Made by a program: the position numbers and the translations under genes
NCBI GenBank assembly: GCA_014905635.1
Contig: JABVCE010000005.1
Coordinates: 1,116,001 to 1,180,000, forward strand
Length of the DNA stretch: 64,000 bases
DNA from: Scenedesmus sp. PABB004
Taxonomy: Eukaryota
Reading direction: 5' to 3'
Notes under the pieces: model-generated
The model's input: only the letters and a program-made list of their open reading frames with translations
Database searches by the model: none
Told to the model about the DNA's origin: nothing
Shown: positions 834 to 44,557 of the stretch, piece after piece
Layout: every line of letters starts with the position of its first letter
Numbering within the stretch: the first letter of the stretch is position 1

Positions 834-1236
834 GGCCCTGCCTGCCTGCCTGCGTCTGGGCGCTGGCTCAAAGGGCTGGCAGCGGCGGCGCGCGCAGCGG
901 CGCGGCGACGGCGCGTGCGCAGCAGCGGCTGCGGCGGCGGCGCGCGCGCGGCGGCGATGCCTGGTGACTGGCGGGCTCGGTGCCTGGCGTCACGGGCAGG
1001 GGGGGGGAGTGGTGGGGCGGTGGGCGCAGCAGCAGCACGCTTGTTGTGTCGCAGGCCCAGGGCGCCGAAACTGAGCCGGTCGAGCTGCCGCAGCCCGATC
1101 AGCCCGATCAGCGCACGCCCACTCCGACGGCGTCACGCTGCGCCTCCGGGACCGCTGCCTGGATCCCTGCGCGCTCGCCGACGGCCGCAACCATCACCTC
1201 GACGGCCCGCGACCCGCGGAGCGGGCGCCCGCCGGG

Positions 1237-4200
1237 ATGAGCCACTCGGCGGAGGGCACCAGCGGGCGCGAGGACGCCGCGGCGGGAGCGACGGGCGGCG
1301 CGATGGCGGTGGACGCGGGGCACGCCCCGGCGCCCGGCACCACCCGCGTGCTGGCGCTCTACTGCGAGGCCCCGGACGAGGACGACATGGGGTTCGACCC
1401 CCCGGACGCCGCCAACATCAGCCACCTGATGCGGCGCCCCGATATGGAGGCACGGCGCGCCGCCGCCGCCGGCGCTGCTGCCCGCCAGCGCTGCTGCTCT
1501 GCCCGCCCGCGCGCAGCGGGGGCGGCGCCGCCCCGCCGCCGACGCCTGCCGCCCGCCCGGTCCCCCCAGGTTGAGGTGATGCGCGCGCCGACGCTGGAGG
1601 AGTTCTCGGCGCGCTGCGAGGCGTTCAAGCCGAGCTTTGTCTACGTCTGCGGCCCCGTGAGCAGCGCGGTCGACTCCATCAAGGGCACCGTGGGCCCCCT
1701 CACGCTCAGCGGTGCGCGCTGCCGCCGCCGCGCCGCCGCCGCCACCCTCACAGCGCGGGCGGCAGCGCGGGCGGCAGCCCGCGAGCTCGCGATCACGCCG
1801 CGCCGCGCCACGCCGCGCCGCGCCAGGCAACGTCGTGACGCCGGGCGAGCTGCTGACCGCGCTGGAGGGCTGCCCGCTGACCACGATCTACCTCGATGCG
1901 GCGGGCCAGGAGAAGGGTGCGCGGGGGACGCGCGCGCGCGCCGCGCAGCAGCAGGAGCGGCGGCAGGAGCGGCGGGGCAGCGCCAGGGGGCAGCGGCGGC
2001 AAACGCACCGGCGGCGGCGACCCGCGCGCCCCGGCCGACGCGTGCCCCGCCGCCTGCCCGTGCGCGCGGCGCAGTCGCGGAGCTGCTGCGCGTGAAGGGC
2101 GTGCCCAACATCCTCTTCTGGGGCGAGGACCCCACCGCGCTCGTGGCGGCGCACTTCAGCGCCATCCTCTTCTCCATACTCGCCCTCGAGCCCCACGTCA
2201 CGCTCATCGAGGCGTACGTGCTCGCCCTCTTCTCCACGCAGGCGCGCGCCCCGCAGCGCCCCGCAGCGCCCCGCAGCGCCCCGCAGCGCCCCGCAGCGCC
2301 CCGCAGCGCCCCGCAGCGCCCCGCAGCGCCCCGCAGCGCCCCGCAGCGCCCCGCAGCGCCCCGCAGCGCCCCGCCCGCCGCCGCGCTGCGCGCGCCGCGC
2401 GCGGAGACGCTGCTCGAGGGTTGAGGGTCTCACGCGCGCCGCGCGACCGCCCGGCCCGGCCTGCGCGCGCAGGCGCACGTGGGCGCCAAGGTCGACGGCA
2501 AGCTGATCATGCCCAACACGCCCGACCTGCTCACCGGGCCCATGGACGACCCCGACAGCGTGAAGCTGGTGCTGCCCGACAACAGCAGCGTGCCGCCGCC
2601 GGAGGTGCCGGGCCTCGACCTCTCCCGCGGCATCGCCGCCGCCGTCGAGGGTGCGCCGCGCGCAGGGGGCTGGCCGGCGGCGGCGCGCCGCGCGCCCGTG
2701 CGCGCCCGCGCCCTGACCGGCCGTCCGCGCGCAGGCTGGATGGACGTGCGCCTGCTCGCGCCGCGCGCGGAGCTTAAGGCCGGCATCGCCGGCGGCAGCA
2801 GCATGGTCGACTCGGGGCGGCTCAGCTACCTCGGCGAGGCGCTGCGGGCGCTGCTGGTCATGGAGGTGCGGCGCCCCTGCAGCGCCTGCGGCGGCAGCCG
2901 CGGCGCCTGCAGCGCCGGCGGCGGCAGCGGCGGCAGACGCAGCGGCGGCGGCCGTTGCAGTCGCGCGGCAGCGGCCGGCCCACCGTGCCGCGCCGGCGCG
3001 TCCTGGGGCCGCCCCCGCCGACGCGCTCGCCGCCGCCCGCCCGCCCGCCTGGCAGGCGCGCCGCGCGCGCCTCGTGTCGTCGTGCCCGCCGGAGCGCCTG
3101 CCCAGCCACCTGGCGGAGGGCTGCTCCGCGCTGCGCTGCGAGGTCGCGACCGCGAGCGGCGCCACCGTGAGCGTGGTGCTCGGCGGCCGCATGTCGGTGC
3201 TCGGCAACGCGGCGCTCGTGGAGCACGCGCTGCGGCAGACGCTGGTGCGCCGCCGCGCCGCGCGCGCCGCGCCTGCCCCGCGCGGGGGCGCGCGTCCTGC
3301 GCAGCGGGAGACCGCTCGTGCGGCCCCGGCGACCGCCCCGCCGCCCGCTCGCGCGCCGCCGCCGGCTCCCAGGTCGCGGACGCGCTGAGCCTGCAGTTCC
3401 GGCTCTCGCCGCCGGGCGTGCCGCTGCCGCAGCCGCTCACCAACCCCGAGGTGCTCGGGGGCTGCCCCTACGTCGAGACGCTGCTGCTCACGAGCGTGTG
3501 GGCCGTCTCGGTGCTGCGCCAGCTCGCGCAGGTGCGCCGCGCCGCCGCGCCCCCCTGCCGCGCCGCCGCATCGTTGCGCCCGCGCGCGCATGCTCACGCC
3601 CCTCCTGCCGCCTCCCCGCTGCCGCCCCTCCCCACCCCACCCCACCCCGCTCGCCGCGCCCTGCGCGCGCACGCAGAGCTCCACGTACCGCGGCCTCGTC
3701 AGCCTCGGCATCGGCACCGTCGGCAGCGCCGCCGTCGCGGGCGCGTCGCCCGCCGACGCGGCGCGGCTGGGCGTGATCGTGACGGGGCTGCGCTCCGGCG
3801 TGCTGCTCATGGAGGAGCTGGTCGCCAACGGCCTGCCCGCCGACGGCATCGCCGGCGCGCTGCTCGGCGGCCGCCCGACCGCCAACCCGCTCGCCGTGCC
3901 GGCCGACCCGGTGCGCGCCGCGCCGCGCCGCCGCCGCCCTGCCGCGCCGCGCGGCGCCGCGCGGCGCCGCGAGCCGCACGCCGCGCCGCCCACTCACCGC
4001 CGCCGCGCGCGCGCGGCCGCGCAGCCCATCGCGCCGCACAACTGCGGGCGGCCGCCGCTGGACGAGCTGAGCGAGGAGGAGTTCCGGGAGGACCTGCTCT
4101 CCTTCCTGAGCCACGTGCGGGGGCGCTACATCGAGCGGCCCAAGTTCCCCGAGGCCGTGCTCAACGGTTTCGTGCTGGACCTGTTTGGGCTGTACCGCGA

Positions 4201-4918
4201 GGTCGTGAAGCGCGGCGGCTTCCGCCAGGGCAACGGCATCAACTGGAAGGGCCAGGTCTTTGCCAACATGCGCAACTGGACGCCCAACAACCGGCAGATG
4301 GGCGTCGGCAACAGCCTCAAGAAGCACTACGCGACATACCTGTGGGAGTATGAGCAGGCGAGGGCGGCGCGGCGCGGGTGGCTGGGCGAGGGAGGCGCGC
4401 ACGCGCGAGGCGCGCACGGGGGAGGCGTGGAGGGGCAGGTGCAGGCGGCGGCGGCGACGGAGGCGTGGCGCGGGAGGGCGCGGCGCGGGAGGGCGCTGCG
4501 CGCCGCGGCGCGGGGCGCAGGCAGGCAGGCAGCTCACGCGCGGCCGCGCCGCCCGCCGCCCGCGCTGCGCCGCCAGGCGCACCCGGGCGACGTCGTGGTC
4601 GACCGCTGCAACCTGTGCGGCCGGGGCGAGGAGGCGGGCGCGACCGACTGGATCGCGTGCGACCGCTGCAACGTGTGGGTGCACTTTAGCTGCGACAAGC
4701 GGCCCAACATGGGCACGTTTGAGGACTACGCGGAGCAGGCCGAGGGCGAGACGCACGCGGCGCCGCCGCGCAGCTACACGTGCCCCAACTGCGCGCGCAG
4801 CGCGGCGCGCAGCGCGGCGCGCAGCGCGGCGGCGGTCAAGGCCGACCCCGCGGCGGCCGCGGCGGCGGGCGGCGCCGGCGCCGCGCTGGAGCCCAAGCCG
4901 GAGCCGATGGAGACCTGA
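1237..4918 (+). CDS. ARID4: AT-rich interactive domain protein 4-like (ARID + PHD finger), multi-exon
   Basis: N-terminal VEVMRAPTLEEF..PSFVYVCG; ARID domain FPEAVLNGFVLDLFGLYREVVKRGGFRQGNGINWKGQVF..GVGNSLKKHYATYLWEYE; PHD finger CNLC..WIACDRCNVWVHFSCD..YTCPNC. Matches the plant ARID4 architecture. Confidence 0.92.
2251..2370 (+). repeat. Intronic tandem repeat (CCGCAGCGCC)x12
   Basis: Perfect 10-bp unit read directly, inside the ARID4 intron 2242-2472. Confidence 0.95.
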
Positions 4919-8104: not shown

Positions 8105-8337
8105 CGCGCAGGCAGGGCAGCACCTGGACGTGCCTGGCGTGCACCTTCAGCAGCAACAACCGCGTGCTGCTGCGCTGCGAGGTGTGCGACACGCCGAAGG
8201 GCAGCGCGGCGGCGCCCGCCAGCGACTGGCTGCGCACCAGCACCGCGCTCGCAAGCACGGCGACGGGTGGGCAGCGGCGGCCGCGGGGCGGCGCTAGGCA
8301 GCTGACGCTGGATCGCGTGCTGCACCGCGCCGCGTGA
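5361..8337 (+). CDS. POLK: DNA polymerase kappa (Y-family), multi-exon, with an apparent frameshift at 6813-6817
   Basis: N-clasp [79 protein letters not shown]-terminal RanBP2-type finger [19 protein letters not shown]-like QLTLDRVL. Confidence 0.95.
6925..7035 (+). repeat. Intronic ~26-bp tandem repeat (~4 copies)
   Basis: Unit GCGCGCCCGCCGCCGCGCTCCAGCGC repeated in a Pol kappa intron. Confidence 0.8.
8008..8103 (+). repeat. CAG repeat encoding poly-Q in the Pol kappa C-terminus
   Basis: (CAG)n with two GAG interruptions. Confidence 0.95.
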
Positions 8338-8380
8338 GCCCGCTGGAGCGCTGGGCGGGCTTGGGCGGCTGCCGCCCCGC

Positions 8381-8385
8381 TGTAA
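8381..8385 (+). terminator. TGTAA polyadenylation signal of Pol kappa
   Basis: Chlorophyte poly(A) signal TGTAA, 44 nt after the stop codon. Confidence 0.7.
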
Positions 8386-9107
8386 CGGCACGGCTGAGCT
8401 GCCCGCGCGCCTCGCGCCGCGCCGCCGGGCGGCCCGCGTGCCGCGCAGGGTGTGCGCGTGCACGCGCACGCGCCGCAGACGGCGCGCGCCGCGGCGGCTG
8501 GCTCCGGGCGGCGGGCGTTGGCGGCGCCGCCGGCGTCGGCCGGCCTCGCAGCACGCCACGGGGCCCCGCGGCCGGCGGCGGCCACCCGACAGGCCCAGGG
8601 CAGCGCGAGCCGCGGGACGGTTTGACTGGCGCGGATTGCGCGCGGGCTGCTGACAATCGCCGCCCCCTGCGCCGACGCGCGCCGGCGCAGAGCAGGCGGG
8701 CGCGGGGCTCCGGCGGCGCGGCGCGGCGGCGCGGCGCTGCGCACCCGGCCGCCGGTGTTGGCGCGGCGGCCGACGACCACCCGCGCGGCTGTGCCCGATC
8801 GCGCTGCGCGCGCGGCTGTGGGGCCTGGAGATCGCGCGCTGTCGGCCGGGCGGGCGCGCGGGTCGGTGCGGGCGCGGGGCGGGCGGGGATCGGGGAGGCC
8901 GGGCGATCAGCAGCAGCGACCGCCGCCCCGCGCCCCCGCAGGCCGCGCGGCCCCACGGCGCCGCGTGCGTGTGCGCCAGCCGGCCCCGCGCCCCCGGGCG
9001 GCGCTGCTGGCGCGGCGCGCGCCCCAGCGCGGCGCGGGAGCGCCTGCTGCGCGGCGCCCTCCCCCGGCGGCGCGGCGCGGCCCGGGCGGCGCTTGGTTTG
9101 CGAGTGT

Positions 9108-9258
9108 AAGGCAGGGTACTGGCTTGCGCCGCCTGCCGTCAAGAAATTACACTGGCGCCCGAAGGCACCAGTGTGGGGATTGGAAATAGTTTTCAACCAG
9201 CAATAGCGGTGTCTCGGTTAGACCTCATTAACTACCGCAATGCCCCAAGCGCAAGAAT
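9108..9258 (-). ncRNA. U4: U4 spliceosomal snRNA (copy 1)
   Basis: Minus strand reads AUUCUUGCGCUUGGGGCAUUGCGGUAGUUAAUGAGGUCUAACCGAGACACCGCUAUUGCUGGUUGAAAACUAUUUCCAAUCCCC. It has the U6-pairing segments, the K-turn 5' stem-loop, Sm site AAUUUCUUGA and 3' hairpin GGCAGG..CCUGCC. Close to plant U4. Confidence 0.95.
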
Positions 9259-10039
9259 GCCGGGCGTGGGGGCAGGCGCCGCGCTTTGTAGGCGCAGGGA
9301 CGGCGGGTCTCAGCGCGCTGCGACCTCCCGTAACAACGGAGCGCGCCACGCGCCCCCAAAGTCGGCCCCCCAGCGCCCACGAGCTTGTCTGCGCACGCCA
9401 CGCCGCTGCCGCGAGCCCGCGGGGCGCGCGCGCGCCGGCAGGCGCGGGGAAGTGGCCGGCCATCAACGCTGGCCGGCAGGCGCGGGCAGGCGCCGCCGCG
9501 GGCTGCGCGCCGGCGCGTGGTAGAGGCTGACGCACGGCACGGCCGCTCGGCGACGCCGGTGCACGCACAGACCGGTGGCGCGCAGCCGGTGGCGGCGCTG
9601 TGCGCTGGCGCGGCGTGCTGCGGTGCGCGCGCCAGGGCCCGGCGGCAGCGCGCAGGGTGCAGCGGCAGCGCGAGAGCGGCGGGCTGGCTGGCACCGGCGG
9701 GCGGGTGGGACGGCCGGCCAGTTGCACCGCTTGCGGCAGCCGCTGCCAGGCCGTGCGACGCGAGCGCCCGCGGCGCGCGCGTCACTGGCCGGCGTCGCTG
9801 CCGGGCCACAGCAGCTGCTGCACCACCGCCTGGGGCGCGGGCCAAGGGCGGCAGCAGCTGTGGCAGCGTCGCGCGCAGCGGCAGCGTGTGCGGCCCGCCA
9901 CGGAGGCCTGCGTTTGCGCGCAGCAGCAGCAGCATGTGCGCAGCGATCGGTGCACTGCCTCCTGCGCGCGCAGCTGCAGCCTCGGCACGCGGCGCGACAG
10001 CGGCCGCTGCGAGCGCCGCGTTTGTTGGTTTTGAGTATA

Positions 10040-10152
10040 GAGAGCGCACAAGGCGCCACAAAGATAAGATCAGGTCCCTGTGCGCAGATGGCTCGCGGAT
10101 AGTTCTAGTAAAAGGCGAGAACTATGTTCGCCCCGAGTCAACTGCAGGACAT
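10040..10152 (-). ncRNA. U5: U5 spliceosomal snRNA
   Basis: Invariant loop I CGCCUUUUACU (10117-10107) closed by an 8-bp stem AUAGUUCU/AGAACUAU, preceded by GCGAAC and followed by CCG. Also a long closing stem, Sm-like AUCUUUG and a 3' hairpin. Confidence 0.93.
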
Positions 10153-10869
10153 GGCGAGCGCTGGCGCGGCGCGGGGGTACGCCACCTCGGGCGCGGCGCT
10201 GGCGGGCAGGGCGCCGCCTGGGGCCACATAACACCATCGCCACGTCGGGCTTTTGTCTGCGCGCCAGGGGCCTGCGCAGCCCCGCTTCCACCCCGTTACA
10301 CGCGCCGCATGATGGAGCAGCGTTTGCGACCCCGCGCCGCCGCGATGGGTGGCGGCGCTGGCCGGCAGGGCCGCGTGATGGATGGGGTCTGCTGCCCGGC
10401 GGCCGGGCGGGCTCTGAGGTCGGGGGGTCGTCAGGCGCGGCGGGGGCGCTACCTGGGCCACCTGTTAACCTTCGCGCCGCGCCGCGCGGGCCCTGGTGCC
10501 CCTGGTTGACCGCCGCTGCCGCCGCCGGTGCCGCCACCGCTGCCGCCTGACCGCGGCGGCGCCGCCTGCAGGCGCCCTGCCGGCGCGGCGTGCCAGGCCG
10601 TGGCTGCGTGCACCCGGCCCCGCGGCGACAGGCCGGCACACGCAGTCACCACGCAGGGCGGCGGCGATGGCGGGACGCGCCGCTCCGAGCGCGTTCGAAC
10701 GAGCCAAATGCGCGCGCGCGCCCCTTGGCCCTGCGCTGCCCGCGCTGCCCCGACGTCACTCCCGCCGTCGCACACACGCACACTCCCGCTCTCTGCCGCT
10801 CCAGCGCCCTGCGCCAGCGCCCCCTCCGCCGCCTGCCGGCTGCACGCGCGCGCCAGCGCCCCCGCCGAG

Positions 10870-11918
10870 ATGGCCGCGCAGCCCCCGCCGCCGCACCAGG
10901 AGGCGCCCTGGGCGGGCGTGACGGACGTGGCCGCCCTCCACGCCATGCTCGCCGCGCAGCAGGCGACGCTGACGGCGGCGGGCGTCGGCGTCGACGGCAA
11001 GCGCAGCGCCCGCAAGCGCAGCGCGCCCGCCCGCGCCGCCGACGCGGTCAGCGACATTTCTGACGACGACGACGACCCGGACGCGGGAGCCCCGGCCAGC
11101 GACGGCACAAGACCGCGGCGCCGCCCCGCGGCGGCAGCGCCAGCGCCGCCGCGAAGAAGGCGCGCGTCGGCGCGGCTCGGCCGGCGGAGCGCGACGACGG
11201 CGCCGGCGACCAGCAGGGCAAGGTTGCGGCGGCGGCCGCCGCGCTCGCGCGCAGCATCAAGTCGGGCGTGGGCGGGCAGATGACCTACAAGCCTAGCCTC
11301 AAGCGTGCGCCCGCGGGCTGGCGCGCCGCCGCCGCCCGCCCGCCGCCGGCGACGGCCGGGGCGCACCCGCGCGCCCGCGCGCGCCCGCCCGCAGGCGGCT
11401 CGGCGCCCGTGGCGATGGAGCTGCCCTGCATCACCGAGGCCGTGTTCAAGGCGATGCTGGGCGAGCTGGCCCACAAGGCGTCCAACGGCAAGAAGCAGAT
11501 GCAGGCACGGCGCGGGAGGGCGCGCGCCGGCGCCCGCGCGGCGCAGCGCTGCGCGCCGCCGACGGTCGCCGCGGCGCCGCCGATGCGCCGCCACCGCCAC
11601 CGCCGCCGCCGACGCGCCGCGACCGCCACCGCCGCTGCGGGCACCGCCGCGCCGCTCAGCTCAAGGCGAGCGCGGACGACCTGTACGCGATGCTCGGCGA
11701 CGTGCCGACCAAGTCGCTCCGCTACGGCGCGACGCTGGACCTCGTGGGCGTGCGTGCCGCGCGTGCCGCGCGCGCCGCGCGTGCCGCGCGTGCCCCCGCG
11801 CAGCCGCCGAGCGCCGTGCGCCGGCACCGCGCCGGACGACGCCGCCGCGCGCGCCGCGTGCGCAGGGCCTGACGCTCACGCTCAACCGGGAGGCGCAGAC
11901 GCTCAAGGCGCGCGGGCG

Positions 11919-11965
<47 letters not shown>

Positions 11966-12047
11966 GCTGCTGGCGGCGCGCGCGGCGCGCCGACCGTGCG
12001 CCGCGGCGCGCCCGCAGGTCCACGGCACGTACAGCATGATCAAGTGA
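10870..12047 (+). CDS. Small hypothetical protein, multi-exon
   Basis: Spliced reading MAAQPPPPHQEAPW..IKSGVGGQMTYKPSLK..ELPCITEAVFKAMLG..LKASADDLYAMLGDVPTKSLRYGATLDLV..LTLTLNREAQTLK/VHGTYSMIK*. Function unknown. Confidence 0.75.
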
Positions 12048-12433
12048 GCCGGCGGCGGCGGCGGGGTGTAGCGTAAGAAGCTACGCGTGCAGCGAGCGTC
12101 AAACGTTGCCGCAACGACCGTTCAAAACCGCGCTGCGCCGCCGCCAGGCTCCCTTGCCTGCTCATCTGCTGCCCCGCGGCCTGCCGAATCGAGCGCCCGC
12201 GCGATCCCAGCCAGCGCGCGCAGCCGCCGCCCGCGCCGCCCGTTGTGAGCGCTCGCGCCGAATCAAGCCGCTGCCCACATGCTTGCCGCCGCACCCCTGC
12301 GCTGGGCCGTGTGCTAGCCTGCGGCTTTCTGCAGCCGCGGCGCGGCCGCGCTCGCCAGGACGGCGCGGTGCCGGGCGGGGCCGCGGCCGCGGCGGAGACA
12401 GCGCTGAGCGGCGCACGCGCCAGCCGCGGCAGC

Positions 12434-13238
12434 ATGTCGCAAATCACGCTGGTGCGGCTGCCGCCGGCGTCATGGACCTACGGCACGGGCCTGGCGCCCA
12501 CGCGGCAGTGCAGGTGGGCGGCAGCGCCGGCGCCCGCTGCCTGCGCGCGCGCGGGACGCGGCTGGGGTGGTTCACGCCCCTGCCGCCGGCCGGCGCGTAC
12601 CGCCAGGCTGGACCCCTGCAGCACCTCGCACGCCGCCGCGGTGGACGGCCAGGGCGTGCTGCACTATCTGCACGTCGACGCCGCGACGCGCGCGACGTCG
12701 GAGCTGCTCCGCTTTGCGCTGCGCTTTGCGCCCGCGCCCGGCGCGCCGGCGCAGGCCATCACCAAGCCCTGGGCGTTTGAGTTTGTGCCGGGCGCGCCGG
12801 GCGAGGTGCTGCTGGCACAGGGCGGCAGCTGCCGCCTGCTGTACGCCGCGCTGCCGCGGCGCGGCGCCGACGCGAGCGACGTGTATCTCTTTGGGACGCA
12901 CACGGGTGAGGCGGCGGTCCGCGCCGCCGCGACGGGGCGCCGCAGCTGCCGCCGCCGCCACGCGCATGCGCGCGCGCGCGGCGCCTGCGGCAGCCAAGCC
13001 CCCCGCCCGCCCGCCCGCGCGCCCGCCCGCCCGCGCTGCAGCGCCCGTGACCGCGTTTGCCACCAACGGCGCCGTCACGCTCAGCGGCGACGAGGGCGGC
13101 CTCCTCAAGCTCTGGCGCATGGCCGACGGCCAGCTCGCCGACAGCGCGGCGGCGTCCACGCGCGCGGCGGTGACCGCGCTCGAGTGCCTCGGCCCGCTGA
13201 TGGTGCGCTGCTGTGCCGCCACCGCCGCCGCCGCCCGC

Positions 13239-13299
<61 letters not shown>

Positions 13300-16236
13300 G
13301 CATGCCCCCCCCCCCCCCCGAACACGAGCCGCCGCCGCTGCCACAGGTGGCCGCCGGCAGCGCCGAGGGGCGCGTGACCCTCTACGACACCGCCTCGGGG
13401 CGGCTGCTCGCGGTGCAGCGCCTGCAGGCCGGCGACGGCCCCGTGGGCTGCCTCGCGAGCTGGCTACACCCACAGGCGCTCGCGGCCAGCGCGCTCGCGC
13501 CGCCGGGGCCCCTCGCGCCGGACGGCGGCGGGCTGCTGCCGGGGCCCGACGTCGGCCTGCCCTGGCGGCAGGCGCCGGGCGGCACGGCTCCGCGCGACGG
13601 CGGGGGCCGCCGCCCGCGCTGCTGGCAGTCGGGTCGCCGGCGGGCTGGCTGCGCGTGTTTGCGGCGAGCCGGGCAGGGCCGGACAGCTGGGCCCTGCTTG
13701 CTGCGCACGGCAGCGAGCAGGCAGCGCCCATCACGGGCCTGGCCTTCACGCCCGAGGGCGACACCCTCGCGGTGGCGGGCGCCAGCGGCCAGGCGCTGGG
13801 CACCGAGGCGGTCAGCCTCGCGGCCGCGGGGCAGCAGCCGGGCGCGGTCAGCCTCTACGCGCTGCCCGCCGCCGGCGGCGGCGGCGAGCCGGCGCGGCTG
13901 GTGCCGTGGCACCAGTGGGCGCTGCGCTCGCTGCCGGTGGGCCTGGCGGTGCTGCCCAGCAGCGGCGTGCAGCTCCTGACGGGCATGCAGCTTGGCGCCG
14001 TGCAGGTGGTGCACCTGCTCGCGCCGCCGGAGCTGGGGCCGACCCTGGTGCTCACCGCGTCGCGGCCGCTGGAGGCCGCCCCCGGCTCGCCGGCACGCGC
14101 GCTGGCGGGCTCGCCCGTCTTTCACGTGGCGCAGCGCGACCTGGCGGCGGTCGCGGGCGCCATCAGCGCGGCGGGGGCCGCCTCGCTGCAGGAGGCCGAC
14201 CTCGAGGCGCTGCTGGACAGCCTGGTGGCGGAGGCCGCGACCGCGTTGGAGCTGCAGGTGGCGGGGCCGCAGCCGCGCGCGGCGTCGGCGGAGCCCGAGG
14301 GCGGCCAGCTGCCCGCCGCGTCACCCGGAAGCTTTGGGGCGCAGCTGCTGGCGGCACAGGCGCAGGAGGAGGAGGAGGAGCAGGAGCAGGAGCTCGGCCA
14401 GCCGGGCCGGGCGCCCGGCGCTCGGCGGCACCTGTTTGGCGCCGATGGCGCGGCGGCCAGCCCACCGGCCAGCCCAGCGCCGCGGGGTCAGGAGGGGCTG
14501 CTGGCCCTGCTCGGGGCGCTGGAGCAGGCGCCGCCGGAAGCGCCGCGGGCGGCGGCGCGGGCGGCAGAGCAGGAGGCCGCGCCCGACCTGGCAGCCGCCT
14601 TCCGGCGGCCCTCTACGCTGCCTGCGCTGCGCAGCTGGATGGACCGCGACGCGGCGCTGGCCGCCGGCATGGTGGCAGAGGCTGGCCCCGGCGGCGCGCT
14701 GGACCTGGAGGCGCTTGCTGAGGAGATGCGGCAGCAGGCGGAGCAGCGGCGCCAGGCTGAGGCGCAGCGCGAGGCCGAGGGGGCGCAGCCGCCGGCAGAC
14801 GCGCAGCCGCCGGCAGACGCGCAGCCGCCGGCAGGCGCGCAGCCGCCGGCAGGCGCGCAGCCGCCGGCAGGCGCGCAGCCGCCGGCAGAGGTGCAGACAG
14901 AGCCGGCGCTGGCGCGGACGGCCGACCGCGAACCCGCACACCAGGCGGCGCCAGAGCCGGAGGGCGAGGGTGAGCTGCCCTGCGAGTCGACCTTTCAGGA
15001 CCTGCTGGAGGCGGCGGAGCAGGCGGCAGCGGTGCCGGGGCCCCGGCAGCCGGGCGCGGCGCAGCCTCCGCCGCCGCCAGAGGCGGCGGCAGCGAGCGAT
15101 GCGCCTGCCAGCAGCGCGGCAGCGCCGCCCGCGCCCGCCGGCAGCAGTGACGAGGAGGAGCCGCGCCCCAGGCAGCTGCCCAGCGCGCTGCAGCAGCCAC
15201 GCGCGCCCGCTGCGCCCCAGCCGGCCAGGCGCGCGGCGGCGGGCTGGGCTGCCGGAGCAGTGCTGACGACGCGCGTGAGCGCTGGGGACGTCGCACCAAG
15301 CGAGCAGCCGGGCGGCACCGAGGGCGCGCAGCCGGCAGCTCAGGGCTCTGAGCACGCGCTCGCGCCGCAAGAAGCGGCGGAGCTGGAGCAGCCGCTGCCG
15401 CGGCAGGTGCGGGCCGCCAAGCCGCCGGGCGTGAGGGAGCGCCTCAACCTGCGCCTGCAGCGGCAGCGCCAGCAGCAGCAGGGAGTGCCAGCCGCAGACG
15501 AGGCGGCCGCCGGCGCAGCGGCTCCAGGCGCGGCCCCGGCCATGCCCGCCAGCGACCACCCGCTGGCGACGGCGGTCGTCAACAGCTCGCTGCTGCTGGC
15601 CAAAGCAATCGAGGTGTGCTGGGTCGGGGGCTTGCCCGCGCGGCGCGCACACGCACGCGCGCCTGCGCGCGGCCCGCGCCGCTGCCGACGCTGCCGCCCG
15701 CGCAGGAGGCGGAGGCGCCGCCGCAGGTGGCCGTCGACGCGGACGCGCCCGAGGTGCTGCGGCTGGCGGCGCGGCTGGCGGAGCTGGACGTCGAGCGCGG
15801 CGCGTGCATGTACGACTACGGCGAGCTGCCGGACCTCAAGGACATCCCCACGCCCACCCACGCCCGCAGGCGCGGCGCAGGCGCCGCAGCACACGCGTCA
15901 GCCCTGTCCAGCCGCTCCCACCTGCCCTCCCTCTCTCCCTCTCGCTCCCGCCTTGCTGCTCTCCCGTGTGCGCACGTGCGCAGCTGCCGCGCTCCGCTGC
16001 CACCCTGACGGCGGGCTGCGCCGCGTTGTCGCCGCCGCCGCAGGCTGGTGCCCAAGCAGCTGGACGCGCGCTGGGTGGCGTCGCGCAACCTCAAGCCGCA
16101 GCTGTCCACGCTGTTCCAGCCCGCCGACTGGCAGCCCGGGGCGGTGCAGCCGCAGGTGCTGGTGCTGCCGGCCTGGCCGACGCCCCAGGCGGTGGTGCAG
16201 CAGCTGCTGTGGCCCGGCAGCGACGCCGGCCAGTGA
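12434..16236 (+). CDS. WD40/beta-propeller protein with low-complexity C-terminal half; apparent frameshift at 13602-13606
   Basis: WD-like blades HTAPVTAFA..LSGDEGGLLKLWR, VAAGSAEGRVTLYD, PITGLAFTPEGDTLAVAG. Last exon ends TPQAVVQQLLWPGSDAGQ*. Confidence 0.75.
14784..14888 (+). repeat. Coding 18-bp tandem repeat (AQPPA[D/G] x6)
   Basis: GCGCAGCCGCCGGCAG(A/G)C units in the large exon of the WD40 gene. Confidence 0.9.
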
Positions 16237-17713
16237 CGCGCGCGCCGCGGGCGCTCGCGTCGCGCGGCCTGGCAGCGGCTGCCGCAAGCGGTGCAACTGG
16301 CCGGCCGTCCCACCCGCCCGCCGGTGCCAGCCAGCCCGCCGCTCTCGCGCTGCCGCTGCACCCTGCGCGCTGCCGCCGGGCCCTGGCGCGCGCACCGCAG
16401 CACGCCGCGCCAGCGCACAGCGCCGCCACCGGCTGCGCGCCACCGGTCTGTGCGTGCACCGGCGTCGCCGAGCGGCCGTGCCGTGCGTCAGCCTCTACCA
16501 CGCGCCGGCGCGCAGCCCGCGGCGGCGCCTGCCCGCGCCTGCCGGCCAGCGTTGATGGCCGGCCACTTCCCCGCGCCTGCCGGCGCGCGCGCCCCGCGGG
16601 CTCGCGGCAGCGGCGTGGCGTGCGCAGACAAGCTCGTGGGCGCTGGGGGGCCGACTTTGGGGGCGCGTGGCGCGCTCCGTTGTTACGGGAGGTCGCAGCG
16701 CGCTGAGACCCGCCGTCCCTGCGCCTACAAAGCGCGGCGCCTGCCCCCACGCCCGGCATTCTTGCGCTTGGGGCATTGCGGTAGTTAATGAGGTCTAACC
16801 GAGACACCGCTATTGCTGGTTGAAAACTATTTCCAATCCCCACACTGGTGCCTTCGGGCGCCAGTGTAATTTCTTGACGGCAGGCGGCGCAAGCCAGTAC
16901 CCTGCCTTACACTCGCAAACCAAGCGCCGCCCGGGCCGCGCCGCGCCGCCGGGGGAGGGCGCCGCGCAGCAGGCGCTCCCGCGCCGCGCTGGGGCGCGCG
17001 CCGCGCCAGCAGCGCCGCCCGGGGGGCGCGGGGCCGGCTGGCGCACACGCACGCGGCGCCGCGGGGCCGCGCGGCCGGCGGGGGCGCGGGGCGGCGGTCG
17101 CTGCTGCTGATCGCCCGGCCTCCCCGATCCCCGCCCGCCCCGCGCCCGCACCGACCCGCGCGCCCGCCCGGCCAGCAGCGCGCGATCTCCAGGCCCCACA
17201 GCCGCGCGCGCAGCGCGATCGGGCACAGCCGCGCGGGTGGTCGTCGGCCGCCGCGCCAACACCGCCGGCCGGGTGCGCAGCGCCGTGCCGCCGCGCCGCG
17301 CCGCCGGGGCCCCGCGCCCGCCTGCTCTGCGCCGGCGCGCGTCGGCGCAGGGGGCGGCGATTGTCAGCAGCCCGCGCGCAATCCGCGCCAGTCAAACCGT
17401 CCCGCGGCTCGCGCTGCCCCGGGCCTGTCGGGTGGTCGCCGCCGGCCCCGGGGCCCCGTGGCGTGCTGCGAGGCCGGCCGACGGCGCCGCCAGCGCCCGC
17501 CGCCCGGAGCCAGCCGCCGCGGCGCGCGCCGTCTGCGGCGCGTGCGCATGCACGCGCACGCCCTGCGCGGCACGCGGGCCGCCCGGCGGCGCGGCGCGAG
17601 GCGCGCGGGCAGCTCAGCCGTGCCGTTACAGCGGGGCGGCAGCCGCCCAAGCCCGCCCAGCGCTCCAGCGGGCTCACGCGGCGCGGTGCAGCACGCGGTC
17701 CAGCGTCAGCTGC
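16181..17713 (-). repeat. Right arm of ~1.54 kb inverted duplication
   Basis: Reverse complement of 8298-9837. Includes an orphan copy of the Pol kappa end [12 protein letters not shown] (17713-17674, minus strand). Confidence 0.97.
16758..16908 (+). ncRNA. U4: U4 spliceosomal snRNA (copy 2)
   Basis: ATTCTTGCGCTTGGGGC..TATTGCTGGTTGAAAACTATTTCCAATCCCC..AATTTCTTGA..GGCAGG..CCTGCC. Identical by eye to copy 1. Confidence 0.95.
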
Positions 17714-17774
17714 AGCCTCGAGGCTGCTGGCGAGCTCGCCAGGCACCGACAGCCTGCAGCTGGCGCCGCCCCGC

Positions 17775-19345
17775 CTACAGGCCGTAGGGGAAGCTCGGCG
17801 CGCCCGCGGCGTCGCCGCCGCGGCGCAGCTCGGTGGGCGCGGGCGGCCCGCCCGCCGCGCCGGCGACGCAGTCCTCGGGGCTCGCCGCGTAGCCGGCCTC
17901 GGCGCGGTCGGCCGCCGCGCGCTTCATCGCGCGCGCCGCGCTGCGCTCGTGCCGCGCCTCGACCCCGTGGCGCGTGAGCACGATGAGCAGCAGCGTGCAC
18001 GCAACGTACATCGCAAACGCGCCGCCCAGCGCGACCGCCGCGGCGCGCGTGCCCGACCGCGCCGCGCCGCGGATGCCCGCGAGCATGGCCCCGCCGCACA
18101 CGCAGCTCGCGGCCTGCATGAATGCGGCAAAGGAGCCGAGGTTGAGGCACACGGGCGGGCAGAGCGGCTGGAACGCGTAGCGCGCGCCGCCGCCGAGCAG
18201 CGCCGCCGCGGCGGGCGAGCCGGCGACGCTGTTGGCAAACGCGAGCGCGACGGCGGACGCGTCCGACGCGGTCGCGAGGTTGAGGCCCAGCGGGCCCAGC
18301 AGCGCGTCCGCCTCGCTGCCGCGCGCGGGGGCGGGCAGGCGGCGCGGTGAGCACGCGCTGCGCCATGTAGCGCTGGCGGCCCCGCGCGCGGCGCCGCGCA
18401 CCTGGTGCCGGACGTGATGGCCCGGTCAATGGCGATCGCGCCGCCCAGCCACAGCAGCATGCCCATCAGCACGAGCACGACCGCGAGCAGCAGCAGCCAC
18501 ACCATGAAGCTCAGCAGCCCGCCCGCCGCGCGGAAGACCGTGAACGTCCAGGGCTCGGGCAGGCCTGGCGGCCGGCGGCGGCGGCGGCGCGCGCGTCGAC
18601 GCGCGCCCGGGCCGCGGCTGCAGCCGGCCGGGCCCCGCGCCCCGCGCCCCCCGCGCGCCGCCGGCACCGCGGGCGCACCGCAGCTGCTGCGGCAGCAGCC
18701 GCCGAGCAACGCGGAGCGGTTGCCCGCGCCCCAGACGGCCAGCAGCACGACGAGGGCCGCGAGCACGAGGCCAAAGATCCCGACCGCGAGCGCCGCGCTC
18801 AGCAGCCCGCTCTTGACGCCGCTGACCATCGCCGGCGAGACGCCGATCGCGTCGGCGATCTGCGTGCGGCGGCGCGCGCCGGCGAGCTCTCGCGCGGGAG
18901 CGGGAGACGGCCCGCGCGCGGCAGCCGCGCAGGCAGGCAGTGCCGCAGGCTCAGCGTTCAGTGCCGCCCGAGCCTCGCGCGCACCCGCCACGTGAACTCG
19001 CCGACCCGCGCGGCGCCGCCGACGAAGAGCGCCAGGCCGCCGACAAACAGCGCCGCCGCGAGCAGCGCCGACCAGGGCGTCAGGCGCCAGCACGCGGCAG
19101 CGCCTCCCCTGCCGCCAGGCGGGAGCGGGCCGGCCGCCAGCGCGCGGTGGGCCAGTGGGCCAGCGCGCCGGCCGCCAGCGCGCGGGCCGCCAGCGCGCGG
19201 TGGGCCAGTGGGCCAGCGCGCCGGCCGCCAGCGCGCGGGCCGCCAGCGCGCGGTGGGCCCGCGCGCCCTGCGCGCCGCGCGGGGCGCGCTGCTGCTGCGC
19301 CCTGCCGCACCGGCGCTTGGGCGTGACCGGGTAGGCCGCGGCCAT
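17775..19345 (-). CDS. Four-transmembrane membrane protein of unknown function, multi-exon
   Basis: Hydrophobic segments WSALLAAALFVGGLALFVGG, LLSAALAVGIFGLVLAALVVLLAVW, LLSFMVWLLLLAVVLVLMGMLLWLGG and VALGGAFAMYVACTLLLIVL. Cys-containing loop CPPVCLNL..CVC. Confidence 0.8.
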
Positions 19346-21842: not shown

Positions 21843-24800
21843 ATGGGCAGCGGCGCCGAGGACGGGCCGGCGGGCCGGGGCGCGCGGCGCAAGGGCGCCG
21901 GCGCCCGCCTGAAGCACCTGCTGCAGCAGGAGGCCAAGGACCTGCAGGTGCGCGCCCCTGGCCGCGGTCGCGCGCGCGCTGCGCGTCGCCGCCGCTCCTG
22001 CAAGCCCCGGCTTGCAGGAGCGCGGGCCGCGCCCGTCGCCGCTCCTGCAAGCGGCGCCGCGAGCCGCGCCGCGACCTCGCGCCGCCGCCGCGCCCCGCGC
22101 CCGCGCCAGACGCTGGAGGCGGAGGACGACCAGGAGTCGGAGGAGCTGGCCGAGGCGGCCGCCAAGCCCAGGCAGCGGCACGACCGCCATGCCGCGCGGC
22201 AGGTGACCGCAGCCGAGGCGCAGGCGCCCCAGCCCCAGCAGCTGCCCCGGCCGCAGCGGCCGCCGGGCGCCTTTGCGCTGCCGTTCGCGGCGCTGGGCAA
22301 CGGCGCGCCGGGCGTGCTCACGCTGGAGCAGCTGCTCCAGCTGCAGGCGTCGCAGCTCGCGCTCGCCGGCGCGGCAGCAGGCGCTGCCGCGGCGGCGGGC
22401 GCGCGCGGGGCCATCGCGCCGCCCGGGGCGTCAGGAGCGCCGGCACGCGCTGCAGCAGCGGCGCCGGCGGCGGCCGCCCCAGGCTCGGCAGCAGCGGTCG
22501 ACGCAGCGATGGCGGCGGCCATGCCAGTGGATGTCAGCAAGCTCCTCGCCGCCAGCCGGGCGGCGGCCGGCGGGGGCGGCGCCGTCAAGCAGGGCGCCGG
22601 CGCGCGCGGCGGGGGCGGGCTGCTGGCTGCGGAGCGGCCGCGCATCACGCTGCCACCGCACTTCAGGGGCCAGGACAGCGGGCCCGGCGCGGCGGCGGGG
22701 CAGGCGGTGGGCGACGCGAGCGCGGCGTGGAGCGTGGGCAGGGAGGCAAAGGACGCGCGCGGCGCAAAGCGCCGGCGCGGCAGGGCCGACGCGGGCGGCG
22801 CCGACGCCGACGCCGACGACGGCGACGCCGACGCGGGCGACGACGGCGGCGCCGGCGGCGCGATCGCGCCGCCCGCGCCGCCCGCGCCGACGCCGACCCG
22901 GGCGCTCCCGCGCGGCGCGCGGCCGGCGTGGCTGGCGCAGGTCGACGACGGCACGGCGCACCTCAACAAGCGGCGCTGCCGCGCGCTGGAGGACGACCTC
23001 GCCGCGCCGCAGCAGCTGGAGTTCATGCTCGGCTGCGCCCGCTGCCACCACCAGCGGGTGCGCTGGGGGCGGGGCGGGGCGGCGCACGCGCGCTGCCGCG
23101 CGTGCTGCGCGTCCGGGGCTGATGAGCCCACACTTTTGCCTCATACTTCGCTGAAAGCCGCGCGCGGCCATGAGGAGATCGAGTGTCGCTGACCCAGACG
23201 CCAGGCGCCCGCGAGGACGGGGGCGGGGCCGCTGCGCCGCTGCCGCGCCGCGCCCGAGGCGCGCCCCGCCGCCCCCGCCGCCGCAGACCGGCTGCAGCGC
23301 GTGCCGCGCCAAGCCGGCGCTGCGCCGCCCCATGGCGCGCTGGCAGCCGGACGCGGGGCGCCCGCAGCTGGAGCTGCCGGACGCGCCCACGTTCTCGCCA
23401 ACGGCCGATGAGTTCGAAGACCCCCTGGCCTATCTCGCGAGCATCTTGGAGGAGGCGTCGCAGGCCGGGCTTGCCAAGATTGTGCCGCCGCGGGGCTGGG
23501 CGCCGCCGTTTGCCCTGCAGCGGGGCGGCAACGCGGAGGGCCTCCGCTTCGCCACGGCGCGCCAGTTCACGAGCCACCTCTGCATGCGCACGCCGCCGCC
23601 CGCGGCGGGCGACGCCGGGTGCGCGCGCCGGGGCGCCGCGGCGCACGCCGCACGAGCCGCCGGCGCCTGACTGACCGCGCCCGCACCCGCCTCCTCGCGC
23701 CGCGCCCGCAGGCCCGAGCAGCACCCGGCGCAGCTGCTGGGCCCCGAGGCGGCCGTGGTGGCGCGGCTGGACGCTCTGGGGCTGCAGGGCGAGCAGCCCG
23801 ACGAGCCCAGCAGCAGCGCGGTGGGCACAGTGGACGCTGCCGGCAGCGTGAGGCAGGCGGCGCGGTGCGCCGCCACGCCTCCCAGCGGCGCGCGCGTCAA
23901 GGCGGAGCCCGGCGGCGCCGACGCGGTCAGCGACTCCGACGCGGTGGACGCCGCGGCCGACGGCGCCGCGCCGCGCGCGCGGCCGCGCGCCGGCGGCGGC
24001 CGCCGCAAGCAGCAGCGCGCCGCCGTGCGGTCGCTGGCAAAGCAGCGTCAGCGGCACGCAGAGGGCGTGGACGCGGACGGGCAGGCGGAGGAGCAGGAGG
24101 AGCCGGACGAGCAGGCGGGGCAGCAGCAAACGCAGCAGCAGGAGGGCGGCGCGCAGCGGTGCAGCAGCATGAAGCAGGAGCCAGGCGTGGAGGTGAAGGA
24201 GCCGGGCGCGCAGCACCAGCGGGGGGCGCAGCCGCCGCCGCCGCCGCCGCCGCCGCCGTACGTGGAGGGCGCGGGCGGGCCGTCGCTGCCGGACCAGACG
24301 CACACGCTAGCCTCGTTTGCCGCGTACGCCGACTGGGCGCGGCGCGTGCACTTCTCTGCGCTGCCCTGCAACGCTGAGCTCAAGGCGGCGCTGCAGGAGT
24401 GCGGCGCCTCGCGGTCCGCCGCGCCGGCGGCCAAGCGGCAGAGGGCGGTGGGCCGGCAGTCTGGCCGGCAGCGGGACGCGTCTGGCGGCAGCGAGTCAGG
24501 CGACGAGGGGATGCAGGAGACGGGGGAGGGCAGCGACGACGAGGCGGAGGAGGAGGACGACGACGGCGACGAGGACTCGGAGCGGGGCGCCTCGGAGGCG
24601 GCGGACGAGTCGCGCAGCCGCAGCGCGCGGCAGCCGGGCAGGGCCGCCGCGGCGGTGCCCGCGCCAGAGCGGCAGAGCTCGCGCCTGCAGCAGAGGAGCG
24701 GCAGCCGGCGCGGCGGCGCGGCCAAGGCCAGGCCGGCGCCGTGCGGTGCCAAGCCGCGCGGCGCGGGCCGCAAGCGCGGAGCGGCCGGCGACGGCGCCGG

Positions 24801-27800: not shown

Positions 27801-29430
27801 CGCGTCGGCGGCCAGGGCGTCGCCGCCGCCGCAGCAGCACGCGGAGCAGTCGGGCGACCCCCCCGCGGCGGCGGGCGGGGATGCCGGCGCGAGCGCCCGC
27901 GGCGGCGTGCGCGCGCTGGTGTCTTCCGACGAGGCTGCCGAGCTGGCGGCGGGCGTGCTGGAGGCGCTCGCCGCGGAGCCCAAGGCGCGGCTGGCGCCGG
28001 AGGAGGCGGAGCGGGCGCGGCAGGCGCGGCGCCGGGAGCGGCAGGAGCAGCGCGCACGGTGGCAGGCGCGCATGGCGGCGCTGCAGGCGCAGCAGGAGGC
28101 GGAGATGGCTCGGGCGCACGCCGAGGAGAAGCAGCAGCCAGGCAGCCAGGGCGGTGGCGCGCCGGGGCAGCCCGCCGCAGCGCAGCCCGGTGCAGAGGGG
28201 CCGGCCGCCGGGCAGCGCCGCGGCGGCGCGCCGGCGGGGGGCGGCGAGGGCGCGCCGGCCGGCGCCGCCAGCGCGGCGCCGGCGCCCGCGGCGAGCGGCG
28301 CCGGCGGCGACAAGGCGCAGCTGGCCGCGCAGCTGGCGATGCAGGCACAGCTGCAGGCGCAGCTGCAGCTGCAGGCACAGCTGCGCGCGGCGGCGCTCAC
28401 GGCGGCCGCTGCGTCGGCGGGGCAGGTGCCGGGGTTCCCGGGCGCGGGGCAGCCGATCCTCGCGATGCACAACGGCGTGCCCGTGCTCGTCTACGCCGCA
28501 CCCGCGCAGCCCACGCCCAGCCAGGCGGGCGCGGGCGGCGCGGCGCCCGCGGCGACGGAGCGACAGCCGGCGCCGGCGCCGGTGCCGGCGCCGGCGGGCG
28601 CGGGCGCGGACCAGCCGGCTGCGGCGGCGCCGCCGCCCGCGGACGCAGCGGCGGCGCGGCCCGGCGCGGCGGCCGCGGCGGGCGCGGCGGCAGAGGTCGC
28701 CTCGGCGCCAGATGCCGCGCTGCCCGCAGAGGAGCAGGCCAAGAGCGCGTCGGGCGAGGGCACGGTGGCTGCGCTGGTGGCCCCGGCGGCCTCGGCGCCG
28801 AGCGAGGCGGCCGCGGTGGCCGCTGAAGCGCCCCCGGTGGCCCCGGCGGCGAGCGAGGCGGCCGCAGAGGCGCCCCCGGCGGCCGCAGAGGCGGCAGCGG
28901 CGGCCCCGGCGACGAGCGAGGCGGGCGCAGAAGCGCCCCCGGCGGCCTCGGCGCCGAGGGAGGTGGCTGCAGAGGCGACGGCGCCTGGGCCCGGGCCCGG
29001 CCTCCAGCCGCCGTCCAGCTTGGGCGGCAGCAGTGAGGGCTGCATGCCGCCGGCCGCGACGCCGGCACCGGCGGCGGCGGCATCGGCGGCGCCGGCGCCA
29101 GCGGCTGCAGCGGCGGGCGGCGGCGCCCCGCCCGCCATCGCAGGCGGGGGCGCTGCCGAGGTGCCGCCCGCCGCGCCGGAGCCCCGCCCGGCGCGCGCCA
29201 GCGCAGGGGCTGCGGCACCCGCGGAGGCGCTCGAGGCCCCGGCACCGCCCGCGGAGGTCGACGCCCCGGCGCCCCCCGCGGTGGCGCCGTACATGCTCGC
29301 GGCGGCGCGCCCGCTCGCGCCCTCCGCGCTCAGCAGCCTGGGCGGCGCGCCGCGGCTGGCCGGTTGCGACCAGATGGACGAGCTGGAGCTGGAGCCGCTG
29401 GTCGACGGCATGGACGACTTTGACTGGTGA
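21843..29430 (+). CDS. KDM5/JARID1-family JmjN-JmjC-C5HC2 protein, probably catalytically impaired
   Basis: JmjN ELPDAPTFSPTADEFEDPLAYL..GLAKIVPP; VEAEFWR..GADLDS..GSGFP; HPWNLNNLP; VWYGVP; LVQEAGCFVFVPP; degenerate C5HC2 CAVCGADLWL..CPAH..LLFRHSVEEL. Confidence 0.88.
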
Positions 29431-33230: not shown

Positions 33231-33792
33231 CGCAAGGGGCGGCCGCACAGCCGGGGGCGCGATGCACGGCGGCATGCCGGGGGGGGGGGGGACTGCTGGC
33301 GGTGGGGGCCCCTGGCTGCCTGACTGCGGCGCAAGGGTGCTTGCTGCATGTACAATGTTGTCCGCGTGATCTGCGGCGCCTCGTGGAGCTGGGCGCGAAG
33401 AGCCCCCGCGTCGGCCGCTGTGTTGCCGTTGTGTTGCCATTCAACGGGTTTACACACAATGAGCAGTGCTGCTGTAAACAAGTGCGCAGGATGGATGGAT
33501 GGGTTTGGTGGTCAGCAAAACCCAGTGCTGCGTCGCACACGCAACGCCGCGCGGCGCGCCACTCTAGAGTGGCAGCAGATCTGCTGTGCTCTCGCTCTCG
33601 CTCTCACGCAGCCCGTGCGCAGCAGCAGCCCCGCCCGCCGCGCGCCGCTCGGTCGCCGCCGTCGCGGCCGTCAAGCCTGCTACTACGGTCAAAACGCTGC
33701 GTCAGGACGTCCGAGTGCGCGCATACGTTGTGGTCGCCAGGGTTGGTTGGGCAAGGGGATGAAGCAGCGCTGCGCTCGCGCGGCCGGGGCCC

Positions 33793-44313: not shown

Positions 44314-44557
44314 GCGCCCGTTTCTCGCGTCTCGTGGCCGCGCGGGGGCGGGGGGCGCCCTGGCGCGGAGCTGGCCGCCCACGCGCAGCGGCGGCGGCGG
44401 CGGCCGTGCGGCGCTGGAGCGCGCCGGCGTGCTGCTGGGGGCACTGGCGCGCTGTAGGGGTGCCACGTGTGTCGCGGGGTCGCGCGTAGCGTCTGAGAAG
44501 CGCGGCTGCAGCTGCGACACAGCTGTAGCGCGCGGTTGCCCGGTCAACTCCCGGCGC

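What the first reader, a model, noticed from the sequence alone, without database searches (positions are those of the whole stretch)
8298..17713. Inverted 1.54 kb duplication carrying U4 brackets a 6.3 kb block: footprint of a staggered-break inversion
Seen: 8298-9837 is the reverse complement of 16181-17713. The duplicated unit runs from the last codons of Pol kappa ([12 protein letters not shown]) to the last codons of the WD40 gene (PQAVVQQLLWPGSDAGQ*). Each arm therefore supplies the true 3' end of one gene and holds an orphan 3' end of the other. The arms differ by substitutions and a ~6-bp indel near 8530, which argues against an assembly echo. Inference: the ancestral order was Polk-> [U4] <-WD40, and 9838-16180 inverted with duplication of the breakpoint region. 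This left both genes intact and doubled U4. Recombination between the arms could still flip the block.
Basis: partly seen in the sequence, partly recalled or inferred. Interest (0 to 1): 0.85.

Follow-up and report, generated by a model that had tools for sequence, protein, structure and literature searches.

The report
Inverted duplication beside a transposon-type scar
In a very GC-rich green alga, a 1.5 kb stretch carrying a splicing RNA gene and the tail ends of two genes was copied in reverse next to what looks like the scar of a departed jumping gene, leaving a block that can flip without breaking any gene; the duplication is real but of a known kind.

Summary
The inverted repeat is real: 8298-9837 versus 16181-17713, 98.4% identical, with two identical U4 genes. 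Its ends are the conserved C-termini of Pol kappa and of a WD40 protein. The ancestral order Polk-> <-U4 <-WD40 is the most parsimonious reading (about 0.8), but no outgroup could confirm it.

'Staggered-break inversion' is not the only route. If the block is flipped through its arms, the locus is the ancestral order plus one inserted inverted copy. A break patched by copying, then flipped by recombination, fits equally well. It also fits the imperfect 19-bp match at the inner junction and the younger-looking inner half of the arms (p 0.005; 0.06 without U4).

New here: the outer junction abuts two back-to-back perfect 16-bp palindromes flanked by a 3-bp direct repeat. The same pattern occurs twice more in the window; simulated sequence gives about 0.02 per window. 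It looks like the hairpin-type excision scar of a transposon with a 3-bp target duplication. No such element was found in the window.

The right arm's 'orphan' Polk end probably serves as 3' UTR of a neighbouring membrane-protein gene. Flipping in vivo is untested.

The parts
8298..9837 (.). Left arm of the inverted duplication (Polk last 13 codons and 3' region, U4, orphan WD40 tail)
16181..17713 (.). Right arm (WD40 last 18 codons and 3' region, U4, orphan Polk tail)
9838..16180 (.). 6343-bp block between the arms (U5, small gene, most of the WD40 gene); invertible in principle
9111..9258 (-). U4 snRNA gene, left copy
   Evidence: Rfam RF00015, 104.9 bits
16758..16905 (+). U4 snRNA gene, right copy, identical to the left
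10044..10152 (-). U5 snRNA gene, 206 bp inside the block
   Evidence: Rfam RF00020, 71.3 bits
5361..8337 (+). DNA polymerase kappa gene (start approximate); stop lies in the left arm
   Evidence: Pfam IMS; orthologs
12434..16237 (+). Chlorophyte WD40-repeat gene; stop lies in the right arm
   Evidence: T. obliquus P0037 with PF00400, E 1.8e-36; last exon 48 of 58 identical
9782..9837 (-). Orphan copy of the WD40 C-terminal codons, no differences from the true copy
17674..17713 (-). Orphan copy of the Polk C-terminal codons (one synonymous difference), lying 3' of the membrane-protein gene
10870..12047 (+). Small intron-containing gene of unknown family
   Evidence: codon score of two exons; no Pfam hit
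17775..19345 (-). Putative membrane-protein gene (start uncertain); stop 61 bp outside the right arm
   Evidence: codon score favours the frame ending at TAG 17775; no Pfam or Atlas family
17626..17630 (-). TGTAA in the right arm, first such motif 3' of the membrane gene (twin of 8381-8385 after the Polk stop); candidate poly(A) signal
   Evidence: the role of TGTAA in chlorophytes is recalled and was not tested here
17712..17742 (.). Two abutting perfect 16-bp palindromes with a 3-bp direct repeat (CTC at 17717-17719 and 17735-17737): candidate hairpin-type transposon excision scar at the outer junction
9838..9856 (.). About 19 bp of imperfect similarity to 16163-16180 (inverted) just beyond the inner arm end; candidate priming or annealing site
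   Evidence: extension score reached by 0.8% of 1500 random pairs

Best explanation
The ancestor had Polk-> <-U4 <-WD40 <-small gene, U5->, then <-membrane gene, with one U4 (inferred). A break arose in the 3' region of the membrane gene, at the edge of a hairpin-type scar left by a DNA transposon with a 3-bp target duplication (the pattern is shown; its origin is inferred). The break came either during repair of the excision or later, at the fragile palindrome pair. The U5-side end primed on an imperfect 19-bp match in the last WD40 exon about 6 kb away, copied 1.54 kb backwards through U4 into the last Polk codons, and was joined to the membrane-gene side (inferred). That made an inverted copy, a second U4 and a new 3' region for the membrane gene. 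A later crossover between the arms flipped the block and homogenised their inner part (inferred). Alternatively, the assembly simply shows one of two isomers. Both genes stay intact in either isomer (shown in silico).
For: Both arm ends are conserved gene ends, so the unit reads as one intergenic segment between convergent genes. The flipped isomer equals the ancestral order plus one insertion, so both new junctions map to one site. That site abuts a double palindrome with a 3-bp repeat. All 3 of 3 double palindromes with both half-arms of 6 bp or more and A/T in the outer arms show the repeat; 60 simulated windows average 0.017 such sites, maximum 1. The chance that one of three such sites lies within 10 bp of one of four arm ends is about 1%. 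The inner-junction match is reached by 0.8% of random pairs. There are 15 mutational events in the outer 694 bp against 2 in the inner 846 bp, p 0.005 corrected for the split point. Hairpin opening with palindromic additions and microhomology joins is described for Ac/Ds, with arms up to 20 nt in yeast (PMC5873905, passages).
Against: No outgroup locus was obtained, so the order of events rests on parsimony. The divergence asymmetry weakens to p 0.06 once the U4 unit is removed. The scar filters were chosen after seeing the sites; with looser filters only 3 of 11, 3 of 6 and 3 of 4 double palindromes carry the repeat. The proximity test is post hoc. No transposase was found in 102 of 435 ORFs scanned, and the 18 terminal-repeat candidates look like short GC-rich chance matches. 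That 3-bp-TSD (CACTA/EnSpm) elements hairpin their flanks is recalled; the passages read show this only for hAT. The inner match ends in mismatches right at the junction. A one-step staggered-break inversion gives the same final sequence.
Confidence: 0.45

Rival explanations
1. One-step inversion with one staggered and one near-blunt breakpoint. The ancestral order is the same; the 1.54 kb was duplicated as the block inverted. The scar marks the blunt break or is incidental, and later gene conversion evened out the inner half.
For: It gives the observed sequence exactly. The pattern is well documented: in Drosophila 17 of 29 inversions carry inverted duplications, often from only one breakpoint (PMC1885836, passages). 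It needs a single event, and the asymmetry is weak without U4 (p 0.06).
Against: It needs simultaneous breaks at two loci and a 1.54-kb stagger; the same paper names the length to be unwound as a difficulty. It does not by itself explain the younger inner half or why the second break sits at the scar edge.
Confidence: 0.3
2. No inversion. The present gene order is ancestral, with U4 and U5 in tandem. First the Polk end plus U4 was copied to the right site; later a conversion from the right copy overwrote the left U4 upstream region with the WD40 tail.
For: U4 and U5 lie about 790 bp apart on the same strand at left. Two ages would explain the outer/inner asymmetry, and the 19-bp match could be where the second tract ended.
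Against: It needs two non-homologous copying events in opposite directions, where the best explanation needs one plus an ordinary crossover.
Confidence: 0.12
3. Assembly or haplotype artefact: one arm is an echo, or two alleles were stitched together.
For: No independent data bridge any junction, and the arms share identical runs of 433 and 328 bp. The orientation of the block in particular could be arbitrary if reads were short.
Against: 12 of 15 substitutions are transitions, 7 at CpG, as expected of real mutation. Each arm is needed to complete one conserved gene. Two alleles could give both junctions only if each carried a different gene-truncating inversion (inference).
Confidence: 0.07
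4. The arms are long terminal inverted repeats of a mobile element, or copies of a high-copy repeat.
For: Genome-wide copy number could not be checked. A transposon-type scar is adjacent.
Against: The left arm ends inside the conserved Polk coding sequence, so 8298-17713 cannot be an insertion into an intact site. The outer flanks share only 2 bp (seen in the sequence). There are two copies in the window and no transposase hit.
Confidence: 0.03

Closest known systems
Inversions with inverted breakpoint duplications from staggered breaks (Ranz et al. 2007, PMC1885836; passages read)
   Same: Inverted duplication of unique, gene-containing sequence at both ends of a block; only one breakpoint region duplicated.
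   Different: The block is only 6.3 kb, and the duplicate (1.54 kb) is longer than their 321-bp median. No outgroup proves the inversion, and a duplication-first route gives the same sequence.
Hairpin-type excision footprints of hAT elements (Ac/Ds; PMC5873905, PMC1978519, PMC3878927; passages read)
   Same: Palindromic additions at both flanks, joined through 1-2 bp of microhomology; arm lengths of 7-13 nt are within the range reported for yeast.
   Different: The direct repeat here is 3 bp, not 8. The palindromes are even-centred, not centred on the complement of the base next to the element. All three sites have long additions on both sides with no loss of flank.
CACTA/EnSpm DNA transposons (3-bp target duplication: bioRxiv 10.1101/342816, PMC8195511; active in Chlamydomonas: PMC9977147; passages read)
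   Same: 3-bp direct repeat; the superfamily is active in a green alga.
   Different: No element, terminal repeat or transposase was found here. Flank hairpins for this superfamily are recalled, not seen in the passages read.
Templated insertion at double-strand breaks (synthesis-dependent gap patching) followed by recombination between inverted repeats (recalled; the paper sought was not held)
   Same: A nearby segment is copied into a break using short imperfect homology, creating a repeat pair that can invert the block between.
   Different: The copy carries a complete snRNA gene and seems to supply the 3' end of a third gene.

Membership tests
Staggered-break inversion with breakpoint duplication | Inverted duplication of unique sequence at both ends of the block | tested here: met
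Staggered-break inversion with breakpoint duplication | Duplicated unit is host sequence, not a repeat family | tested here: inconclusive
   conserved gene ends and two copies in the window; no genome held
Staggered-break inversion with breakpoint duplication | Outgroup shows the uninverted order with a single copy | tested here: inconclusive
   0 of 28 algal U4 loci carry these genes; C. zofingiensis orthologs lie on different chromosomes; run X1 bridges no junction
Staggered-break inversion with breakpoint duplication | Duplication and inversion arose in one event | not testable with these tools
   the flipped isomer equals a simple insertion
hAT excision footprint | 8-bp target duplication and palindromes centred on one unpaired base | tested here: not met
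   0 of 3 sites have an 8-bp repeat; all are even-centred; odd-centred doubles show no repeat
CACTA/EnSpm excision footprint | 3-bp direct repeat at the two flanks | tested here: met
   3 of 3 under the strict filter, 4-mers not equal
CACTA/EnSpm excision footprint | Matching element or transposase in the genome; filled or empty allele in a relative | tested here: inconclusive
   none in this window; genome not held
Transposon with long terminal inverted repeats | Target duplication outside the arms and insertion into an otherwise intact site | tested here: not met
   the left arm ends inside conserved Polk coding sequence; flanks share only 2 bp
Invertible (flip-flop) segment | Both orientations present in the population | not testable with these tools
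   no long reads; the one run listed is short contigs of a relative

The most novel reading that the evidence does not exclude
This alga carries an undescribed, recently active DNA transposon with a 3-bp target duplication that hairpins both flanks and leaves long two-sided palindromic scars at roughly one per 20 kb. One such excision caused the capture of a 1.54-kb U4-bearing segment, gave a neighbouring gene a new 3' end and created a gene-neutral flip-flop block. The scars would be a genome-wide, element-free record of past transposition and of the breaks that drive rearrangement.
Probability: 0.3. Interest if true: 0.65.

Novelty: new member of a known kind. Interest (0 to 1): 0.4.

Why it matters
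As a rearrangement it is an unusually clean small example of a known class, here in a green alga. It also shows that a breakpoint duplication cannot by itself tell whether duplication or inversion came first. The more useful result is the scar pattern. It is simple to search for, and in this window it is far above chance. If it holds genome-wide, it would reveal a hairpin-forming transposon with a 3-bp target duplication from its footprints alone, and allow a direct test of how often excision sites coincide with rearrangement junctions in Scenedesmaceae-like algae.

Tried and rejected
Short exact matches between junction regions (an 11-mer, a 12-mer and a 14-mer) looked like templated inserts. 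Taken together they are ordinary: 3 observed against a null mean of 1.5, P 0.2. Rejected, although the 14-mer alone scored 0.003.

RNA-hairpin reading of the double palindromes: folding z-scores were -0.69, -0.62 and -3.45, so 2 of 3 are unremarkable; this reading also does not explain the 3-bp repeat.

Membrane gene read in the frame that ends in the orphan Polk tail: codon score -1.03 against +0.33 for the frame ending at 17775.

Synteny attempts, all uninformative. No genome is held. A U4-pattern scan of metagenomes gave 28 loci of about 50% GC, none with Polk, WD40, small-gene, membrane-gene or U5 matches; viral contigs gave 0. WD40 locus scans found no algal locus (one weak bacterial hit, L029, dropped as irrelevant). 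C. zofingiensis has the WD40 ortholog at Cz13g14110 among unrelated neighbours, and the likely Polk at Cz01g20280 (that AT1G49980 is Pol kappa is recalled), too distant to polarise. T. obliquus Polk and WD40 accessions come from different annotations. No WD40 fragment shared a contig length with a Polk hit. Supplements of PMC6913025, PMC7161124 and PMC7955037 gave nothing usable; 5 of 17 files of the second and 6 of 17 of the third were not searched. One protein search with the intron-containing WD40 frame found nothing.

Sequencing runs: only X1 was listed (share 0.07), and no RNA holder was listed. Laid on 8125-11900, it shows a relative's short contigs over U4 (9041-9378), the U5 region (9953-10216) and 10220-10420, none bridging a junction; its depths say nothing on copy number.

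Earlier findings of the scan: 5 look-ups, nothing returned.
Full report
Setting. The window is 79% G+C and intron-rich. Its best named protein matches are Scenedesmaceae green algae, Scenedesmus sp. NREL 46B-D3 and Tetradesmus obliquus. No whole genome is held.

Observation. The inverted repeat is as described. The arms are 8298-9837 and 16181-17713, 98.4% identical, with 15 substitutions (12 transitions, 7 at CpG) and indels of 6, 1 and 2 bp. Each holds an identical U4 gene, and a U5 gene lies just inside the block. The outer end of the unit is the last 13 codons of Pol kappa, whose QLTL motif aligns with the end of the T. obliquus ortholog. The inner end is the last 18 codons of a WD40 protein, whose last exon is 48 of 58 identical to the T. 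obliquus ortholog. So each arm completes one gene and holds an orphan tail of the other. The mutation spectrum argues against an assembly echo (inference).

A third gene. A putative membrane-protein gene on the minus strand stops at 17775, 61 bp outside the right arm. Codon scoring favours that frame over the one that runs into the orphan Polk tail; it has no Pfam or Atlas family. The first TGTAA downstream of it lies in the arm, at 17630-17626, the twin of the one after the Polk stop; there are only 10 TGTAA in the window. The orphan Polk end therefore probably serves as this gene's 3' UTR. This is inference; the role of TGTAA as the chlorophyte poly(A) signal is recalled.

Uneven divergence. 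Counting adjacent changes once, 15 events fall in the outer 694 bp and 2 in the inner 846 bp. The probability is 0.005 after correcting for the chosen split, and 0.06 after removing U4 with its flanks. Selection on U4 explains part of it; recent recombination between the arms may explain the rest.

Junctions. Beyond the inner end, about 19 bp of the block still resemble the WD40 exon; 0.8% of 1500 random pairs extend as well, and the outer junction shows no extension. At the outer junction two perfect 16-bp palindromes abut, 17712-17727 and 17727-17742. The outer arm of the left one ends with the three bases that begin the outer arm of the right one. The same architecture occurs at 33558-33586 and 60936-60979, with different trimers and no 4-bp repeat. 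Under the strict filter (both half-arms 6 bp or more, A/T in both outer arms) 3 of 3 sites have the repeat; looser filters give 3 of 4, 3 of 6 and 3 of 11. Sixty order-5 Markov copies of the window average 0.017 strict sites with the repeat, never more than 1, and two random palindromes with A/T share the trimer 5% of the time. In 271,687 bases of the fetched loci (28 from other algae, 1 bacterial), 0 of 4 double palindromes had the repeat. The filters were chosen after seeing the sites.

Reading the pattern. A duplicated target trimer whose two flanks were each sealed into a hairpin, opened 7-13 nt from the tip and joined through 1-2 shared bases gives exactly this sequence. For Ac/Ds, hairpin footprints with palindromic additions and microhomology are described, with arms up to 20 nt in yeast, centred on the complement of the base next to the element (PMC5873905, passages; also PMC1978519 and PMC3878927, passages). 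Here the repeat is 3 bp and the palindromes are even-centred, so hAT does not fit. CACTA elements make 3-bp duplications (10.1101/342816 and PMC8195511, passages), and EnSpm elements are active in Chlamydomonas (PMC9977147, passages). That they hairpin their flanks is recalled only. No transposase was found in 102 of 435 long ORFs chosen by codon bias, and none of 18 terminal-repeat candidates is convincing. So it works like a hairpin excision scar; the element is unidentified. The chance that one of three scars lies within 10 bp of an arm end is about 1%, or under 2% if confined to the roughly 60% of low-coding tiles (my arithmetic); this test is post hoc.

Mechanism. A crossover within the arms leaves both last exons unchanged. 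The locus is thus also 'ancestral order plus one inverted insertion', with both new junctions at one site, the edge of the scar. I rank first (0.45) a break at that site patched by copying 1.54 kb from about 6 kb away, primed on the imperfect match, followed by a flip through the arms. The one-step staggered-break inversion (0.30) gives the same sequence and is well documented in Drosophila: 17 of 29 inversions, often one-sided (PMC1885836, passages). These two share the ancestral order. A no-inversion, two-conversion history gets 0.12, artefact 0.07 and mobile-element ends 0.03. Shown: the arms, the gene ends, the palindrome pattern and the gene-neutral flip. Inferred: the ancestral order, the transposon origin of the scar, the order of events, any actual flipping and the use of the new 3' end.

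What could not be settled. Every route to an outgroup failed. The one listed run holds a relative in short contigs that bridge no junction; one contig over the U5 region has 52 unaligned letters beyond 9953, which were not displayed. The orientation of the block in this assembly depends on reads spanning identical runs of 433 and 328 bp, and the read type is unknown. Supplement files that were not searched could hold gene-order data.

Novelty. Inverted breakpoint duplications and transposon-linked rearrangements are known, including alternative transposition (PMC12312487, passages). In Chlamydomonas mutation-accumulation lines most inversions and translocations involved Crypton or Replitron elements. 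Seven searches (listings, plus the passages named) showed no report of this two-sided 3-bp scar or of a U4 inverted duplication in green algae. The library lacks most subscription papers, and two papers sought were not held. PMC3072357 and PMC11790086 (passages) added nothing. Verdict: a real, recent local duplication of a known kind, with an unreported-looking scar at its edge that merits a genome-wide test. Interest 0.4.

Noticed in passing
window 33558-33586 and 60936-60979: Two more double palindromes with 3-bp direct repeats (TCT, GGG), apparently between genes and with no rearrangement seen beside them; same architecture as the scar at 17712-17742.
   Followed up: partly
window 9331-9350 and 10229-10244 (minus strand): U4 and U5 share a motif (CGTGGCG ... 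TGTTA) starting 92 bases upstream and a similar A/C-rich box just downstream; candidate snRNA promoter element and 3' box.
   Followed up: no
window 6541 and 11505: Introns that appear to start with GC instead of GT (Polk and the small gene); others seem present by eye.
   Followed up: no
window 45895-45926: A single perfect 32-bp palindrome, the longest in the window.
   Followed up: no
window 33450-33477: Two opposed TGTAA motifs about 20 bases apart between convergent genes, about 80 bp from the second scar.
   Followed up: no
window 1200-4918, 23100-29400, 40600-42300, 44100-49500, 50200-50900, 53700-54500, 58300-59300: Ordinary genes by Pfam: ARID/PHD, JmjN/JmjC/C5HC2, RAB3GAP2, FAD/berberine-bridge oxidase, DEAD-box helicase, PHF5, another WD40, CCDC113/96.
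   Followed up: no
L001-L028: U4 loci of other algae (about 50% G+C) from one set of metagenome assemblies; 88-90% identical to this U4 over 80 bases, none near U5, Polk or the WD40 gene.
   Followed up: partly
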